In this document: positions 4,648-30,553 of the stretch, piece after piece
Position numbering within the stretch: position 1 is the first letter of the stretch
Layout: the number at the start of each line of letters is the position of its first letter
Virus record (IMG/VR): IMGVR_UViG_3300035670_000049
Location: 1 to 64,000 of that record
Source: a virus
Strand: one strand, 5' to 3'
Length of the DNA: 64,000 nt
Notes under the pieces: generated by a model
What the model saw: the letters and a program-made list of their open reading frames with translations, nothing else
Database searches by the model: none
Told to the model about the DNA's origin: nothing
Program-made: the position numbers and the translations under genes

Positions 4648-4725
4648 TGGTGCCCTTGAGTGGATTCGAACCACCACTGTACTGATCTTGAGTCAGTTGC
4701 CTCCTGCCAATTGGGCTACAAGGGC
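4648..4725 (-). tRNA. tRNA-Leu(CAA), short variable loop
   Basis: ACTGA-CTCAAGA-TCAGT, CCA. Confidence 0.9.
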
Positions 4726-4726
4726 T

Positions 4727-4803
4727 TGGTAGTCCCGGTGGGATTCGAACCCACACTTGGCGGATTTTAAGTCCGCGTCCTCTGCCGATTGGGATACGGG
4801 ACC
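4727..4803 (-). tRNA. tRNA-Leu(TAA), short variable loop
   Basis: GCGGA-CTTAAAA-TCCGC, CCA. Confidence 0.9.
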
Positions 4804-27521: not shown

Positions 27522-27596
27522 TGGCTGGCACGCTGGGATTCGAACCCAGATCAACGGATTAACAGTCCGGCATCCTACCCATTGGACGACACGCCA
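27522..27596 (-). tRNA. tRNA-Asn(GTT)
   Basis: Loop CT-GTT-AA, GCCA. Confidence 0.92.
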
Positions 27597-27605
27597 GTAA
27601 AGAGA

Positions 27606-27734
27606 CTAGGGAGACTAAGGCAACATCGGAGATTTTAGGTAGACTCTCCCGCCGCAAGACAGTAATAACGAGTAACCAACGAGTAGACAAATCGTAAAAT
27701 GGTGTCGAAGTATCCGATATCTACACTGCCCTAG
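27606..27734 (-). ncRNA. Y-RNA-like unit 1 (U-rich cargo)
   Basis: CTAGGG/CCCTAG stem, CAGTGT, ATATCGGA/TCCGATGT stem, TACTTC, TTAGTCT. Confidence 0.75.
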
Positions 27735-27748
27735 AAGTTATACGTAAT

Positions 27749-27880
27749 TTAGTGAGATTAAATTCAATCAGATTTTTAACGCTTGCGCGCTCGGCTGGAT
27801 TCGAACCAGCAATAGTTTCTTTAAGAGAGAAAAATCTTTACCGTTAGATTACGAAGTATCTGATTAAGACACTACACTAA
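27749..27880 (-). ncRNA. Y-RNA-like unit 2 (tRNA-Lys(CTT)-like cargo)
   Basis: TTAGTG/CACTAA stem, TAGTGT, TACTTC, TTAATCT; D, anticodon and T arms inside. Confidence 0.8.
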
Positions 27881-27926
27881 GAGTTGTCCTTTCCCCGCCC
27901 CTTGAAAAAGGGACAGAGACTGAACA

Positions 27927-28016
27927 CTAGTTGATGTGCCGTCGCACATCCGGTAGTACAGTTGGGCAGCGCGCATTTAATGATGCCCGATGTACTACCC
28001 GATGAGCGATGACTAG
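27927..28016 (-). ncRNA. Structured RNA without complete Y scaffold
   Basis: GGTAGTACA/TGTACTACC, GGGCA/TGCCC, GATGTGC/GCACATC stems. Confidence 0.45.
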
Positions 28017-28148
28017 GAAGATTAATTCAGAACAGTAACGTTTTCCTGTGCTGCCGTAACACTTAACCCTGCCCGTTGTGCAGGATTGGGGAGTCGAACC
28101 CCTCTTGGGCATCCTAATTGCGAAGTAACTGTTTCCTACACTATCCTA
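28014..28148 (-). ncRNA. Y-RNA-like unit 3 (circularly permuted tRNA, YrlA-type)
   Basis: TAGGA/TCCTA stem, motifs; T arm, closed acceptor stem, D arm in that order. Confidence 0.8.
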
Positions 28149-28164
28149 TAGATGTAAAATTTAT

Positions 28165-28339
28165 ATAGTGAGATTAATCGGATCGGGGGCTTTATCGTCT
28201 TGCTTCCGATTCGTCACTTAGTCCTTTCCTAAGAGTCACTAGGGCCATCCTCCCATGCTGGCATAATATACCTTATACTGGTTCTTGTGTTTTCGAGACA
28301 AAAGTTGTGTAGAAGTACCCGATTCCCACACTACACTAT
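28165..28339 (-). ncRNA. Y-RNA-like unit 4 (multi-hairpin cargo)
   Basis: ATAGTG/CACTAT stem, TAGTGT, GGAATCGGG/CCCGATCC, TACTTC, TTAATCT. Confidence 0.75.
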
Positions 28340-28385
28340 GTGAATGACAGCCTTGCCTCCAAGGCTCTACTTTATTATAACATAG

Positions 28386-28529
28386 ACTAGAAGGATAAGT
28401 CAACTAGGCTTGCCCAAGAGGATTCGAACCTTCTTCTCTGGACCTTCAAATCCAGCGTGTTGCCATTACACCATATTGACGGGCGGTTTTTGGAGTCAAT
28501 AGAAGAATTCCTAATCTACACTATCTAGT
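28386..28529 (-). ncRNA. Y-RNA-like unit 5 (tRNA-like cargo, 8-nt anticodon loop)
   Basis: ACTAGA/TCTAGT stem, TAGTGT, TTCTTC, TTATCCT. Confidence 0.72.
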
Positions 28530-28542
28530 TTAATGTCTTAGT

Positions 28543-28617
28543 TGGTAGCCCTACGGGGAATCGAACCCCGATTGTCGGATTGAAAGTCCGGTATCCTAGC
28601 CATTAGACGATAGGGCC
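28543..28617 (-). tRNA. tRNA-Glu(TTC), inside the Y-RNA array
   Basis: Loop CT-TTC-AA, intact acceptor, CCA. Confidence 0.93.
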
Positions 28618-28621
28618 GCTA

Positions 28622-28715
28622 TTTAGGGAGGTTAAGACTGAACGGAAAACAGGTTATATCCGTAGATAATAACTCTCTTGTGCAAAGAAGTAACCGTTTC
28701 AAACACTGCCCTAAA
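28622..28715 (-). ncRNA. Y-RNA-like unit 6 (minimal, cUACGg hairpin)
   Basis: TTTAGGG/CCCTAAA stem, CAGTGT, TACTTC, TTAACCT; begins 4 nt after TROVE stop. Confidence 0.75.
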
Positions 28716-28719
28716 AATA

Positions 28720-30312
28720 TTACCAGTTCTTGATTTCTTCAACCATTGCATTACCCTTCTCGTAAATAGCAATCAGATCAAAAATCTTGTCTGACCAACC
28801 ATTTAGAAGAACAACGTTCTTCGCATTAGAAGGAGTCTGCTTTGTTCCGTATGCGTTGATATCCAGCGAGAACAACTTCGCATTTGGATACTTCTTAGCG
28901 TAGGTTGCCCACATCTTGTGAACATCCCTTACCTGAGAGCCATTATAGCCCCAACCATATCCAGCGTAGTAGTTATCTCGGTGCTGCGAGTCATAGCACT
29001 GCATGTCAGAGATAAGAATTACCCTATCAACTTCCTTTGTGCCCAATTCCTCAAAGGCAAGCCAAGCGTTTGTGCTAAAACCTACCCCAAGGCCCTTGAT
29101 TTGCTCAATATTAGTCATCATCGTATCGTCTGGATTAATACGAGCAGTCTTTGCCCTATCCCCAAATCCGATAACGATTGAGTCTGCTGACTTCTTAGCC
29201 GCAATGGCAGCAAGAGTACAAGCAGTATCCTTATATGAAACCTTTGACTTAGCCGAAAGTTTTGAATCCATTGATCCCGACAAGTCTACCAAGATCGCAG
29301 TCTTGCCATCAAGACGAACATTTGAAATAGACTTCTCAAATGCCTGAGCAATTGCTCTTGAAATCTTCTGATCTGAAATTTCACGGTAGGCAGAAAGGAA
29401 TCTAAATGGAAGTTGCTTTGAACGCTTAATCTCGTTCTCGTCCGTGATGCGGGCAAGAATGGGATCAAGATCAACACCCTTTTCTTGGAAGTTGCGAAGG
29501 TTCCGCAATAGAGCCATATAGCCCATATTTGGAGCCACTAATTCCCAATTTTCCTTAGTAGAGCCAAACTTGGAAATAAGAGTTTCCCAAGTCACCCCTG
29601 ACTTCTTAATTAACTCTATGGCTTCTGCGTCAAGCGAATCCTTGGCAAGCAGAGCCTTTAGTGCTGCTGTCTTAGGTAGCGCCTCTACATCTACCTCATC
29701 CTTGGTTAAGTAGTTATATAGTGCCTTGCCGATAGCCGGATGCACTAACTGTGCAACTTGCCCAAGAGAAACATCAGCCTTTGACGAATCATACTTATTT
29801 AGTTGATACTCGTCAAAATTTAGGAACGCCTTAGCAAGTCCCTTCTTCAATGAGTTAGGGAAGTTTGCATGAGTTACGTTTGGACGCTTTGGGTCCTTCC
29901 CGTAATTATTAGAATAGTAGGCTACAATCTCGCTTAACTCGTCTGCACGCTTTACAATCTTAGGTGTATACTCCACCACGAAAGGCTTGCATTCAGGAAT
30001 CCTTGCGGCTTCTACCAGAATGACCTGTGGAGTTGTGCGCAGATAGAGAACATTTCTAGCATATGCTGCTAACTGCAATGGGAACCGTGGATCAATCTTT
30101 GCAACGGTCTTGATGTTCTCAACAATTTCCTTGCTGATCTTCTTGCCCTTTGCATAGAATAAATCTTCATTCCAAAATGCGCCCACAACCTGTTCAACGA
30201 GTTTATCGCGTGCATCCAGTTTAAATGCTACCGCACCCTCGTAATTGGTTGTAGTCTCTTCCGTTAACCTTTGTGTAACCTTTTCACGCTTAGTCGCGTT
30301 TAATCGTGCCAT
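28720..30312 (-). CDS. rsr: Ro60/TROVE domain RNA-binding protein with vWA domain
   Basis: TTNYEGAVAF, TWETLIS, MGYMALLRNLRN, SKQLPFRFLSAY, DLSGSM MIDAS. Confidence 0.95.
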   Translation of the reverse strand: MARLNATKREKVTQRLTEETTTNYEGAVAFKLDARDKLVEQVVGAFWNEDLFYAKGKKISKEIVENIKTVAKIDPRFPLQLAAYARNVLYLRTTPQVILVEAARIPECKPFVVEYTPKIVKRADELSEIVAYYSNNYGKDPKRPNVTHANFPNSLKKGLAKAFLNFDEYQLNKYDSSKADVSLGQVAQLVHPAIGKALYNYLTKDEVDVEALPKTAALKALLAKDSLDAEAIELIKKSGVTWETLISKFGSTKENWELVAPNMGYMALLRNLRNFQEKGVDLDPILARITDENEIKRSKQLPFRFLSAYREISDQKISRAIAQAFEKSISNVRLDGKTAILVDLSGSMDSKLSAKSKVSYKDTACTLAAIAAKKSADSIVIGFGDRAKTARINPDDTMMTNIEQIKGLGVGFSTNAWLAFEELGTKEVDRVILISDMQCYDSQHRDNYYAGYGWGYNGSQVRDVHKMWATYAKKYPNAKLFSLDINAYGTKQTPSNAKNVVLLNGWSDKIFDLIAIYEKGNAMVEEIKNW

Positions 30313-30351
30313 TTTCCTTCTCCTTATAGTATCTATCTTGCGTATAGAACA

Positions 30352-30525
30352 TTATTCTTCAGACTCTTCTTTTTTACCCCTCCCCTTCTTAGTCTGACTT
30401 GGTTTAGGAGCGGGTCTGGAGTACCCAAATCTTGGGTCCCTAATTATAACCTCCTTAACATAAGGATTGTTAAATAGTGTCTCTATGGGCTCTTCATTAG
30501 GTTTGATCTTTCTAGGTCTACCCAT
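30352..30525 (-). CDS. 57-aa basic protein with GRPRK AT-hook-like start, not in track
   Basis: Translated by eye: MGRPRKIKPNEEP...KKEESEE; its ATG overlaps a -10 box. Confidence 0.5.
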   Translation of the reverse strand: MGRPRKIKPNEEPIETLFNNPYVKEVIIRDPRFGYSRPAPKPSQTKKGRGKKEESEE

Positions 30526-30553
30526 TATAGCATTTACTCCATACTAGGTTCAA
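30524..30553 (-). promoter_or_regulatory. TTGAACCTA-class promoter upstream of rsr/Y-RNA operon
   Basis: TTGAAC-N18-TATAAT with TG extended -10. Confidence 0.7.

What the first reader, a model, noticed from the sequence alone, without database searches (positions are those of the whole stretch)
27606..30553. Phage Ro60/TROVE gene followed by an array of six Y-RNA-like RNAs: one conserved scaffold, interchangeable cargos
Seen: starting 4 nt after the TROVE stop, six same-strand units (28622-28715, 28386-28529, 28165-28339, 28014-28148, 27749-27880, 27606-27734) share one architecture. It is [stem1]-(C/U)AGUGU-[stem2]-U(A/U)CUUC-cargo-[stem2']-UUANYCU-[stem1']. Stem1 differs in sequence between units but always pairs (CUAGGG/CCCUAG, UUAGUG/CACUAA, UAGGA/UCCUA, AUAGUG/CACUAU, ACUAGA/UCUAGU, UUUAGGG/CCCUAAA), which is internal covariation. 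The fixed motifs model as a 1-nt bulge plus small internal loop next to the terminal helix. Known: Ro60/Rsr binds a bulged helix formed by the paired ends of Y RNAs encoded beside rsr (Yrn1 in Deinococcus, YrlA/YrlB in Salmonella), and YrlA carries a tRNA-like domain. Inference: this is a multiplexed Ro60-RNP system in which one protein is loaded with six different RNA adaptors (tRNA mimics or decoys, enzyme tethers, or guides), possibly to counter anticodon-nuclease or RNA-sensing defence or to redirect RNA decay. The AGUGU/UUANYCU/UACUUC motif set does not match the Ro-binding motifs I recall, and I do not know of a described six-unit array.
Basis: partly seen in the sequence, partly recalled or inferred. 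Interest (0 to 1): 0.95.

Follow-up and report, generated by a model that had tools for sequence, protein, structure and literature searches.

The report
Six Y-RNA genes beside phage Ro60
A 120-kb uncultured phage encodes a Ro60 RNA-binding ring protein followed by six small RNA genes that share one docking stem but carry different bodies (several tRNA look-alikes). This is a large, sequence-diverged example of the known Ro60/Y-RNA partnership, not a new kind of system.

Summary
AGUGU-N10-U(A/U)CUUC occurs six times in the 120-kb genome, all on the minus strand within 1.1 kb after a genuine Ro60/TROVE gene (0.3 expected by chance). Each unit closes with a terminal stem, a one-base pyrimidine bulge, an AG/CU two-pair step, a small internal loop and an 8-9 bp second stem.

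Across 100 TROVE loci, a covariance model of this handle found 109 matches, 108 on the TROVE strand. All 15 pairs show compensatory changes (97% paired, against 61% when shuffled).

The handle is not unrelated to known Y RNAs. Streptomyces and Arthrobacter phages have the same stem / loop / stem / UUACUUC layout, and there Rfam YrlA matches the inner part. AGUGUA occupies the position of the published GNCGAA motif. UUAC sits where YrlA has its conserved YUAY. Handle type follows the TROVE tree.

Unit 4 is a YrlA-style permuted tRNA mimic. Unit 5 is a tRNA-Lys look-alike in natural order.

Arrays of four to seven units are the rule in this clade, and this scan has noted similar arrays on other DNA.

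Verdict: a new sequence variant and a large array of a known kind. Ro60 binding and any anti-defence role remain untested.

The parts
30524..30553 (-). Promoter-like site (TTGAAC-18-TATAAT with TG) ahead of the small ORF and the Ro60 gene
   Evidence: Consensus scan, 10 of 12 positions. This is a consensus match only.
30352..30525 (-). Small basic ORF (57 aa) directly upstream of Ro60. It is conserved in relatives and its function is unknown.
   Evidence: tblastn finds it just upstream of TROVE at 62% identity in L009, 53% in L011 and 49% in L091. It has no Pfam or PHROG match.
28720..30312 (-). Ro60/TROVE protein (530 aa): HEAT-repeat ring plus a vWA domain with a MIDAS motif
   Evidence: Pfam TROVE 8.7e-32 and vWA_Ro60. 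phrog_850 'RNA-binding protein' 2.8e-55. PDB sequence matches to phiLo Ro60 (4e-27) and to human and Xenopus Ro60. The AlphaFold model (pLDDT 84.6) superposes on Ro60-RNA complexes at TM 0.75-0.76. D343, S345, S347, T414 and D436 are invariant in 67 homologs.
28622..28715 (-). Unit 1 (94 nt): handle plus a short hairpin body, resembling YrlB
   Evidence: Pattern match. Model R1 scores it 29.8 bits, E 5e-05 over the window. Relatives carry a short unit at the same position, directly after the TROVE stop.
28543..28617 (-). Genuine tRNA-Glu(UUC) between units 1 and 2
   Evidence: ARAGORN and Rfam tRNA at 60.9 bits. The same position is occupied in L009, L011, L091, L017 and L098.
28386..28529 (-). 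Unit 2 (144 nt): handle plus a tRNA-like body with D-like, anticodon-like (8-nt loop) and T arms. The acceptor 5' strand is closed into a hairpin.
   Evidence: Pattern match. Rfam tRNA scores 34.2 bits at 28411-28480 with a broken acceptor stem. Fold.
28374..28403 (-). Second promoter-like site (TTGACT-18-TATAAT with TG), between units 2 and 3
   Evidence: Consensus scan, 11 of 12 positions. This is a consensus match only.
28165..28339 (-). Unit 3 (175 nt): handle plus a non-tRNA body. The last ~50 nt of the body are almost invariant in relatives.
   Evidence: Pattern match. It is 84% identical over 177 nt to L091 and 73% identical to L009. Alignment and consensus fold.
28014..28148 (-). Unit 4 (135 nt): handle plus a permuted tRNA mimic in the YrlA order (T arm, closed stem-loop, D-like arm)
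   Evidence: Pattern match. A four-sequence consensus fold shows compensatory changes in the T stem, the following stem and the D-like stem. The arm order is read against Chen 2014 and the Rfam YrlA consensus.
27938..28013 (-). Conserved long irregular hairpin without the handle. It may be a seventh RNA of the array.
   Evidence: The 133-nt stretch 27881-28013 folds at -62.8 kcal/mol, z = -7.2. Both ends of the hairpin are conserved in L009 and L091, with a variable middle.
27749..27880 (-). Unit 5 (132 nt): handle plus a nearly complete tRNA-Lys(CUU) look-alike in natural order, with only a 4-bp acceptor stem, followed by a GNRA hairpin
   Evidence: Pattern match. ARAGORN calls tRNA-Lys at 27787-27858. 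Rfam tRNA scores 46 bits over model positions 5-66 only. Orthologs keep a Lys-type loop (CUU in L091, UUU in L011) with a covarying anticodon stem.
27606..27734 (-). Unit 6 (129 nt): handle plus a body with no T-arm hairpin or other recognisable tRNA features
   Evidence: Pattern match. Fold. Only the handle is detectably conserved in relatives.
27522..27596 (-). Genuine tRNA-Asn(GUU) closing the array
   Evidence: ARAGORN and Rfam tRNA at 61.4 bits. Relatives are syntenic.

Best explanation
These are six Y-RNA genes of the bacterial and phage YrlA/YrlB class. They are transcribed with the phage Ro60 gene and neighbouring tRNAs from one or two promoters. tRNA-processing enzymes probably cut them out.

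Each RNA pairs its two ends into the same docking handle: a closing stem, a one-base pyrimidine bulge, the pairs A-U and G-C, an internal loop (UGUA opposite UUA plus a two-base bulge), an 8-9 bp second stem, and then single-stranded UUACUUC. The phage Ro60 ring most likely binds this handle, as Ro60 binds the bulged helix of other Y RNAs.

The variable body then decides what each particle touches. One unit carries a YrlA-type permuted tRNA mimic, two carry natural-order tRNA look-alikes (one Lys-like), and three carry other folds.

Shown: the anatomy, its conservation and covariation, its linkage to TROVE genes, its homology of layout with YrlA-type RNAs, and the Ro60 identity of the protein. 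Inferred: transcription and processing, Ro60 binding, and any tethering or gating role.
For: - Clustering far beyond chance: 6 matches against 0.3 expected, and none elsewhere in the genome.
- The protein is a full Ro60.
- Handle model R1 found 109 matches at E <= 0.01 in 631 kb of TROVE loci, 108 on the TROVE strand. All 15 pairs carry compensatory changes, with 97.4% paired against 60.9% shuffled.
- An independent descriptor scan found 206 units on the TROVE strand and 7 on the opposite strand.
- An unbiased IMG/VR scan for the 5' half-motif returned 116 loci. Nine had closing stems, and 7 of those lie in records with TROVE. The other 2 are fragments estimated 14% complete. Only 1 of 107 unstructured matches lies near TROVE.
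- The same handle layout and the same UUACUUC enclose the YrlA-matching RNA of Streptomyces phage Quantum.
- UUAC lies at nt 21-24, where Salmonella YrlA has YUAY at nt 22-25.
- Loop positions covary: in 7-nt loops A-U 60 and G-C 28 at one step, and G-C 63, U-A 16 and C-G 14 at the next. The C of GNCGAA pairs with G where U pairs with A here (odds ratio 10.8).
- Handle type follows the TROVE tree: 15 changes against 45.7 shuffled, and the window's clade of 10 rows is all AGUG.
- Bodies are conserved unit by unit in relatives.
- Published precedent: YrlA and YrlB lie next to rsr, are processed from one precursor and are bound by Rsr. phiLo Ro60 binds two adjacent Yrls.
Against: - No expression, processing or binding data exist for this uncultured phage.
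- Rfam YrlA and Y_RNA do not match any unit, even at E <= 10.
- The published GNCGAA or GGUCCGA letters are absent.
- The covariation alignment was fitted to the model, which favours the structure. The tree result could reflect shared descent alone.
- Within the window, the stem 1 sequences are too alike to prove pairing by themselves.
- UUACUUC is more conserved than the presumed Ro60 site, so the real docking element, or a second partner, could differ from what I propose.
Confidence: 0.8

Rival explanations
1. The handles are processing or stability structures of a tRNA operon, for example double-strand nuclease sites that release tRNAs and tRNA-like RNAs. They sit near Ro60 only because both lie in the phage tRNA region. 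Ro60 does not bind them.
For: The units are interleaved with genuine tRNAs on one strand. Two bodies score as tRNA in Rfam. TROVE genes in many phages sit inside tRNA clusters.
Against: The window has 26 tRNA calls (23 outside the array), but the handle occurs only in the 1.1 kb next to TROVE. Structured motif matches found without reference to TROVE lie in TROVE-encoding records in 7 of 9 cases, against 1 of 107 for unstructured matches. The loop letters change together with the TROVE clade, which a host nuclease site would not predict.
Confidence: 0.07
2. The RNAs act mainly on their own, as tRNA decoys or sponges for host tRNA-targeting enzymes. The shared handle serves folding or nuclease protection, and Ro60 is an unrelated neighbour or only a chaperone.
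For: Unit 5 and its orthologs keep a Lys-type anticodon loop with a covarying stem. Units 2 and 4 carry T and D-like arms. Chen 2014 discusses protection from nucleases as one role of the tRNA-like fold.
Against: Three of the six bodies have no tRNA features. The handle, not the body, is the part shared across all TROVE clades.
Confidence: 0.08
3. The units are cis-acting 3'-UTR elements that control stability or translation of the Ro60 mRNA.
For: Unit 1 begins 4 nt after the stop codon, and no terminator-like site separates the gene from the array.
Against: In other TROVE clades the same units lie upstream of the gene. There are 4-7 units per genome with conserved, distinct bodies. tRNAs, which are cut out of the transcript, separate the units.
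Confidence: 0.03

Closest known systems
YrlA / YrlB Y RNAs bound by Rsr (Ro60) in Salmonella, Mycobacterium smegmatis and mycobacteriophages (Chen et al. 2014, PMC4201824; Rfam RF02553)
   Same: - Encoded next to the Ro60 gene on the same strand.
- The two RNA ends pair into a protein-binding stem with a conserved 5'-strand motif, followed by a second stem and YUAY at about nt 22-25.
- Modular, with a tRNA-like body in at least one RNA per locus. Unit 4 has the same T / closed stem / D order.
- Several RNAs are made from one precursor.
   Different: - The 5' motif is AGUGUA rather than GNCGAA.
- Rfam YrlA does not match.
- There are six units plus an extra hairpin rather than two RNAs.
- Two bodies are tRNA look-alikes in natural order, joined to the handle through the acceptor end.
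- Three bodies are not tRNA-like.
Thermus phage phiLo Ro60 with Yrl1 and Yrl2 (PMC12135203; PDB 9KOP, 9L5Y)
   Same: A phage Ro60 homolog (best PDB sequence match, 4e-27) has adjacent Y-like RNAs with a stem / bulge / stem layout. Binding was shown experimentally, and a complex formed with host PNPase.
   Different: phiLo has two RNAs upstream carrying a CGAA motif. Here there are six RNAs downstream carrying AGUGUA and an invariant UUACUUC. The proteins are about 23% identical in the structural alignment.
Unannotated Y-type arrays in cultured actinophages (Streptomyces phages Quantum and LuckySocke, Arthrobacter phage Atuin)
   Same: They have the same stem / loop / stem / UUACUUC handle, repeated 3 to at least 6 times around the 'Ro-like RNA binding protein' gene and interleaved with tRNAs.
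   Different: Their loop reads (GA)UGCG(A/U/C), the canonical type. Rfam YrlA partly matches them (43 and 33.8 bits, below the 69-bit cut-off). Their proteins are only 25-30% identical to this one.
Metazoan Y RNAs with Ro60 (Xenopus Ro60-Y RNA structure 1YVP)
   Same: Paired RNA ends form a conserved helix with a single bulged pyrimidine on the 5' strand, followed by an upper stem and a variable loop. The protein model superposes on 1YVP at TM 0.75.
   Different: The motif letters differ (GGUCCGA in metazoa). Metazoan Y RNAs are described as lacking a tRNA-like module. Their genes are dispersed and are not in an operon with Ro60.

Membership tests
Ro60 / TROVE protein family | TROVE (HEAT-repeat ring) domain followed by a vWA domain | tested here: met
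   Pfam TROVE 8.7e-32 and vWA_Ro60 at 28.2 bits (cut-off 27.7). The model superposes on full-length Ro60 structures at TM 0.75-0.76.
Ro60 / TROVE protein family | MIDAS motif (DxSxS ... T ... D) in the vWA domain | tested here: met
   DLSGS at residues 343-347 aligns with the phiLo Ro60 motif. D343, S345, S347, T414 and D436 are invariant in 67 homologs.
Y RNA (Ro60-associated noncoding RNA, functional class) | Encoded close to the Ro60 gene on the same strand | tested here: met
   All six units lie within 1.1 kb downstream on the minus strand. The same holds in relatives, with 108 of 109 model matches on the TROVE strand.
Y RNA (Ro60-associated noncoding RNA, functional class) | 5' and 3' ends pair into a conserved helix with a bulge, separate from a variable module | tested here: met
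   The closing stem, pyrimidine bulge, two-pair step and second stem are all supported by compensatory changes. Bodies range from about 40 to 120 nt.
Y RNA (Ro60-associated noncoding RNA, functional class) | Canonical Ro60-binding letters (GNCGAAN0-1G in bacteria, GGUCCGA in animals) | tested here: not met
   The equivalent position reads (C/U)AGUGU(A/U/G/C) in all six units. Related loci form a series through UAGUGAA, UGGCGUA, UGGCGAA and UGCGAA.
Y RNA (Ro60-associated noncoding RNA, functional class) | Physically bound by Ro60 | not testable with these tools
   This needs immunoprecipitation or gel-shift assays with the phage protein.
Rfam YrlA (RF02553) | Score at or above the family's gathering cut-off (69 bits) | tested here: not met
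   No unit matches at E <= 10. The genome-wide search gives only 14.6-bit matches in the tRNA clusters at 1648-1711 and 4699-4755, away from the array.
Rfam YrlA (RF02553) | Permuted tRNA-like domain in the order T arm, closed acceptor-like stem, D arm | tested here: inconclusive
   Unit 4 and its three orthologs fold in this order with compensatory changes, but the sequence does not reach the model. The other five units lack this order.
tRNA (Rfam RF00005) | Complete cloverleaf with a 7-bp acceptor stem and a free 3' end | tested here: not met
   Units 5 and 2 pass the Rfam cut-off (46 and 34.2 bits). Unit 5 matches only model positions 5-66 and has a 4-bp acceptor. Unit 2's acceptor pairs are flagged as non-standard. 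Both are enclosed by the handle.

The most novel reading that the evidence does not exclude
The array is a phage adaptor set that lets one Ro60 ring be sent to several different host machines. The conserved tRNA-Lys look-alike (unit 5) would serve as a decoy or sensor for anticodon nucleases. The invariant UUACUUC, shared from actinophages to this clade yet absent from the papers I could search, would be a second docking site for a universal partner, not part of the Ro60 site.
Probability: 0.15. Interest if true: 0.8.

Novelty: new variant of a known kind. Interest (0 to 1): 0.55.

Why it matters
Ro60 and Y RNAs are well known, but what the variable Y-RNA modules do in bacteria and phages is still open. 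This locus, and the roughly 70 related phage proteins with the same handle, offer a compact natural experiment: one protein, one handle, and six conserved but different bodies.

The comparison across TROVE clades gives three things that could be tested.
- A position-by-position map from the published GNCGAA motif to AGUGUA, including a likely C-G to U-A swap. It predicts which protein-RNA pairs should cross-bind and which should not.
- An invariant UUACUUC element, which I did not find described.
- Evidence that arrays of four to seven Y RNAs are normal in phages and are missing from annotation, and in some places are probably mis-called as tRNAs.

None of this changes the kind of system. It extends a known one.

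Tried and rejected
- megablast of the locus against GenBank phages found nothing.
- Rfam at gathering and at E <= 10 gave only tRNA matches and chance-level noise. Rfam YrlA run on the whole genome matched only sites in the tRNA clusters away from the array, weakly.
- MAFFT could not align whole units because the bodies differ. I built the model from five short units trimmed to equal stems.
- Model R1 cannot span long bodies. In the window it finds only unit 1, even with filters off. The long units therefore rest on my own descriptor scan, for which the opposite strand served as the control.
- I first considered that GNCGAA might correspond to the end of stem 2 (..CGG-U before UACUUC), because cmscan laid UUACUU over AUGCuu in phage Quantum. 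I rejected this because the full Quantum RNA has a separate outer stem and a UGCGAC loop upstream.
- manA RNA matches next to TROVE in two other phages are not enclosed by a handle.
- The genome has no RtcB. The flanking genes encode replication proteins and methyltransferases.
- Two review papers on bacterial Y RNAs were not held in the library. A full-text search for UACUUC together with Ro60 found no paper.
Full report
**What is there.** The window is the first 64 kb of a complete 120,336-bp IMG/VR virus with direct terminal repeats. It carries 26 tRNA calls. On the minus strand the region reads in this order:
- a promoter-like site at 30553-30524;
- a conserved 57-aa basic ORF;
- a 530-aa ORF at 30312-28720;
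- about 1.2 kb with no convincing ORF.

The 530-aa protein is a genuine Ro60.
- It matches Pfam TROVE and vWA_Ro60 and phrog_850.
- By sequence it matches Thermus phage phiLo Ro60 (4e-27) and human and Xenopus Ro60.
- An AlphaFold model (pLDDT 84.6, pTM 0.82) superposes on Ro60-RNA complexes at TM 0.75-0.76.
- The MIDAS residues are invariant in 67 homologs.

**The observation.** AGTGT-N8-12-TWCTTC matches six times in the window, all on the minus strand between 27707 and 28707. Shuffles give 0.30 on average. The whole genome has no other copy.

- a closing stem of 5-7 bp;
- a C or U bulge;
- AG;
- UGUN;
- a second-stem strand;
- (U/A)U(A/U)CUUC at nt 22-24;
- the body;
- the second-stem partner strand;
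- UUANYCU, whose last two letters (CU) pair with the AG;
- the closing-stem partner strand.

Unit 1 starts 4 nt after the stop codon. Genuine tRNA-Glu and tRNA-Asn sit after unit 1 and after unit 6.

The one weak point is the claimed internal covariation. The six closing stems are variants of UAG-R-R and cross-pair with each other at 3-5 of 5 positions for five of the six units; only unit 2's 5' strand cross-pairs poorly. The window alone therefore does not prove the pairing.

**Comparative evidence.** The protein has about 70 relatives at 50-85% identity, many on contigs of about 105-124 kb. More distant relatives, near 40%, come from Patescibacteria assemblies. I fetched 160 TROVE loci from metagenomes and IMG/VR.

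In the close clade the gene order is kept: DNA polymerase, tRNA-Ser, tRNA-Ser, tRNA-Ala, small ORF, Ro60, then a gene-free stretch with tRNA-Glu, tRNA-Asn and tRNA-Gln. That stretch holds three to seven 5' half-motifs per locus, four to seven where it is fully sampled.

Whole units could not be aligned by MAFFT because the bodies differ. I therefore built a covariance model from five short units trimmed to equal stems (15 pairs).
- Over 631 kb from 100 sources (the window plus 99 TROVE loci) it found 109 matches at E <= 0.01, 108 of them on the TROVE strand.
- On that alignment 97.4% of cells pair, against 60.9% after shuffling and 43-50% with slid partners. All 15 pairs show double-sided changes. 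The alignment is fitted to the model, which favours the structure, but the margin is large.
- The model cannot span long bodies.
- My own descriptor (U[AU]CUUC anchor, both stems, YG core) gave 206 units on the TROVE strand and 7 on the opposite strand.

**Is the motif linked to TROVE when TROVE is not used to find it?** I scanned IMG/VR for TAGTGTA-N8-9-TTACTTC. The scan returned 116 loci, most of them expected chance matches for 14 fixed bases.
- Nine have the closing stems. Six of these carry TROVE in the fetched locus, on the same strand. A seventh has TROVE elsewhere in the record. The other two lie in fragments estimated 14% complete.
- Only 1 of the 107 matches without stems lies near TROVE.

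**Relation to known Y RNAs.** Rfam finds no YrlA or Y_RNA match in the units. The layout, however, is the known one.
- In Streptomyces phage Quantum, Rfam YrlA matches an RNA upstream of the 'Ro-like RNA binding protein' gene at 43 bits, below the 69-bit cut-off.
- Read in full, that RNA is: outer stem, UGCGACGU, stem CGUCGG, U, UACUUC, then T arm, closed stem and D arm, then CCGACG, an 11-nt loop, and the outer stem.
- LuckySocke has five such 5' halves upstream of its Ro gene. Atuin has at least six around its gene.
- UUACUUC and the two-stem handle are therefore general. Only the loop letters differ.

Across the 160 loci the 5' loop forms a series: UAGUGUA, UAGUGAA, UAGUGCA, UGGCGUA, UGGCGAA, UGCCGUA, UGCGAA, CAUUGCA, UACUGUA and AGGUCCA. 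UGGCGAA and UGCGAA correspond to the published GNCGAAN0-1G.
- In 7-nt loops the second and third letters pair with the last two letters of the 3' loop: A-U 60 and G-C 28 at one step, and G-C 63, U-A 16 and C-G 14 at the next.
- The first letter is therefore a bulge: U 70, C 25, A 3.
- The pyrimidine that is C in GNCGAA tends to face G, and the U found here tends to face A (odds ratio 10.8). The variable bulge length blurs this, so I call it likely, not shown.
- UUAC lies at nt 21-24, matching the conserved YUAY at nt 22-25 of Salmonella YrlA.

On a FastTree of 78 TROVE proteins, handle type needs 15 changes against 45.7 when shuffled. The window's well-supported clade of ten is uniformly AGUG. 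Shared descent alone could give this result, so it is consistent with protein-RNA co-evolution but does not prove it.

**The bodies.**
- **Unit 4** and its orthologs fold as T arm, closed stem-loop and D-like arm, with compensatory changes. This is the YrlA order.
- **Unit 5** contains a nearly complete tRNA in natural order (Rfam 46 bits over model positions 5-66) with a 4-bp acceptor stem that starts inside UACUUC. Its orthologs keep a Lys-type loop (CUU, CUU, UUU) over a covarying stem. A more distant ortholog has UCA and lacks the D arm.
- **Unit 2** has D-like, anticodon-like (8-nt loop) and T arms, with its acceptor strand closed into a hairpin.
- **Unit 3** is 84% and 73% identical to its orthologs. 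About 50 nt at its 3' end are almost invariant and form two small hairpins.
- **Units 1 and 6** have short or unrecognised bodies.
- Between units 4 and 5 lies a conserved long hairpin without the handle.

**Mechanism.** The best reading is a set of Y RNAs that dock on the phage Ro60 through the shared bulged helix and present different modules. This follows what is published for Rsr with YrlA/YrlB, for Yrn1 with PNPase, and for phiLo Ro60 with Yrl1/2. Co-transcription with tRNAs, and release when RNase P and 3' processing enzymes cut at the tRNAs, is inferred from the spacing (4 and 9 nt to the next tRNA) and from the M. smegmatis precedent. Binding, gating, tethering and any counter-defence role are untested. 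The genome has no RtcB, and the neighbouring genes encode replication proteins and methyltransferases.

**Novelty.** Y RNAs next to Ro60 in bacteria and 22 phages were published in 2014, and two phage Yrls were characterised in 2025. I found no paper describing arrays of five or more, the UUACUUC element or the AGUGUA variant, though two reviews were not available. Earlier notes of this scan describe similar four-to-nine-unit arrays with UACUUC beside phage TROVE genes on other DNA. I rate this a new variant of a known kind, of moderate interest.

Noticed in passing
window 27938-28013 (-), with a second hairpin at 27882-27928: A long irregular hairpin without the Y handle. Its ends (GUCAUCGCU.. 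and ..GGAUGUGCGACGGCAC) are conserved in two relatives, with a variable middle. The 3' strand carries UGCGAC, the canonical Y-RNA loop letters. The 133-nt stretch folds with z = -7.2.
   Followed up: partly
window 30352-30525 (-): A 57-aa basic ORF directly upstream of Ro60 is conserved at 49-62% identity in three relatives at the same position. It has no Pfam or PHROG match. It could be a small partner protein of the module.
   Followed up: partly
L140:2629-2805 and L173:4467-4699: The orphan manA RNA motif (RF01745) lies next to the TROVE gene in an IMG/VR phage (57.4 bits, above the cut-off) and in Streptomyces phage LuckySocke (47.8 bits, below it). It is not enclosed by a Y handle.
   Followed up: partly
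L173:2274-2347 (Streptomyces phage LuckySocke, OR725497.1): The GenBank 'tRNA-Ser(gct)' of 74 nt overlaps a Y-type 5' half (CCGAUGCGUAG..AUACUUC), and Rfam does not call it a tRNA. It is probably a Y RNA with a tRNA-like body that was annotated as a tRNA.
   Followed up: no
protein hits P0077, P0094, P0098: The nearest cellular homologs of this Ro60, at about 40% identity, come from Patescibacteria (Uhrbacteria) assemblies. This may hint at the host range of the phage clade.
   Followed up: no
window 28186-28236 (-), inside unit 3: About 50 nt of the unit 3 body (two small hairpins, one with a GGAAAGGA loop) are almost unchanged in relatives whose Ro60 is only 66-74% identical. Conservation at this level suggests a sequence-specific partner.
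   Followed up: partly
L111:1035-1383: A phage-encoded tmRNA (119.5 bits) lies about 0.7 kb upstream of a seven-unit Y-type array and the TROVE gene in another IMG/VR phage.
   Followed up: no
L064, L070, L082: Some TROVE loci carry handles whose 5' loop reads AGGUCC(A), close to the animal GGUCCGA motif and again followed by a stem and UACUUC.
   Followed up: no
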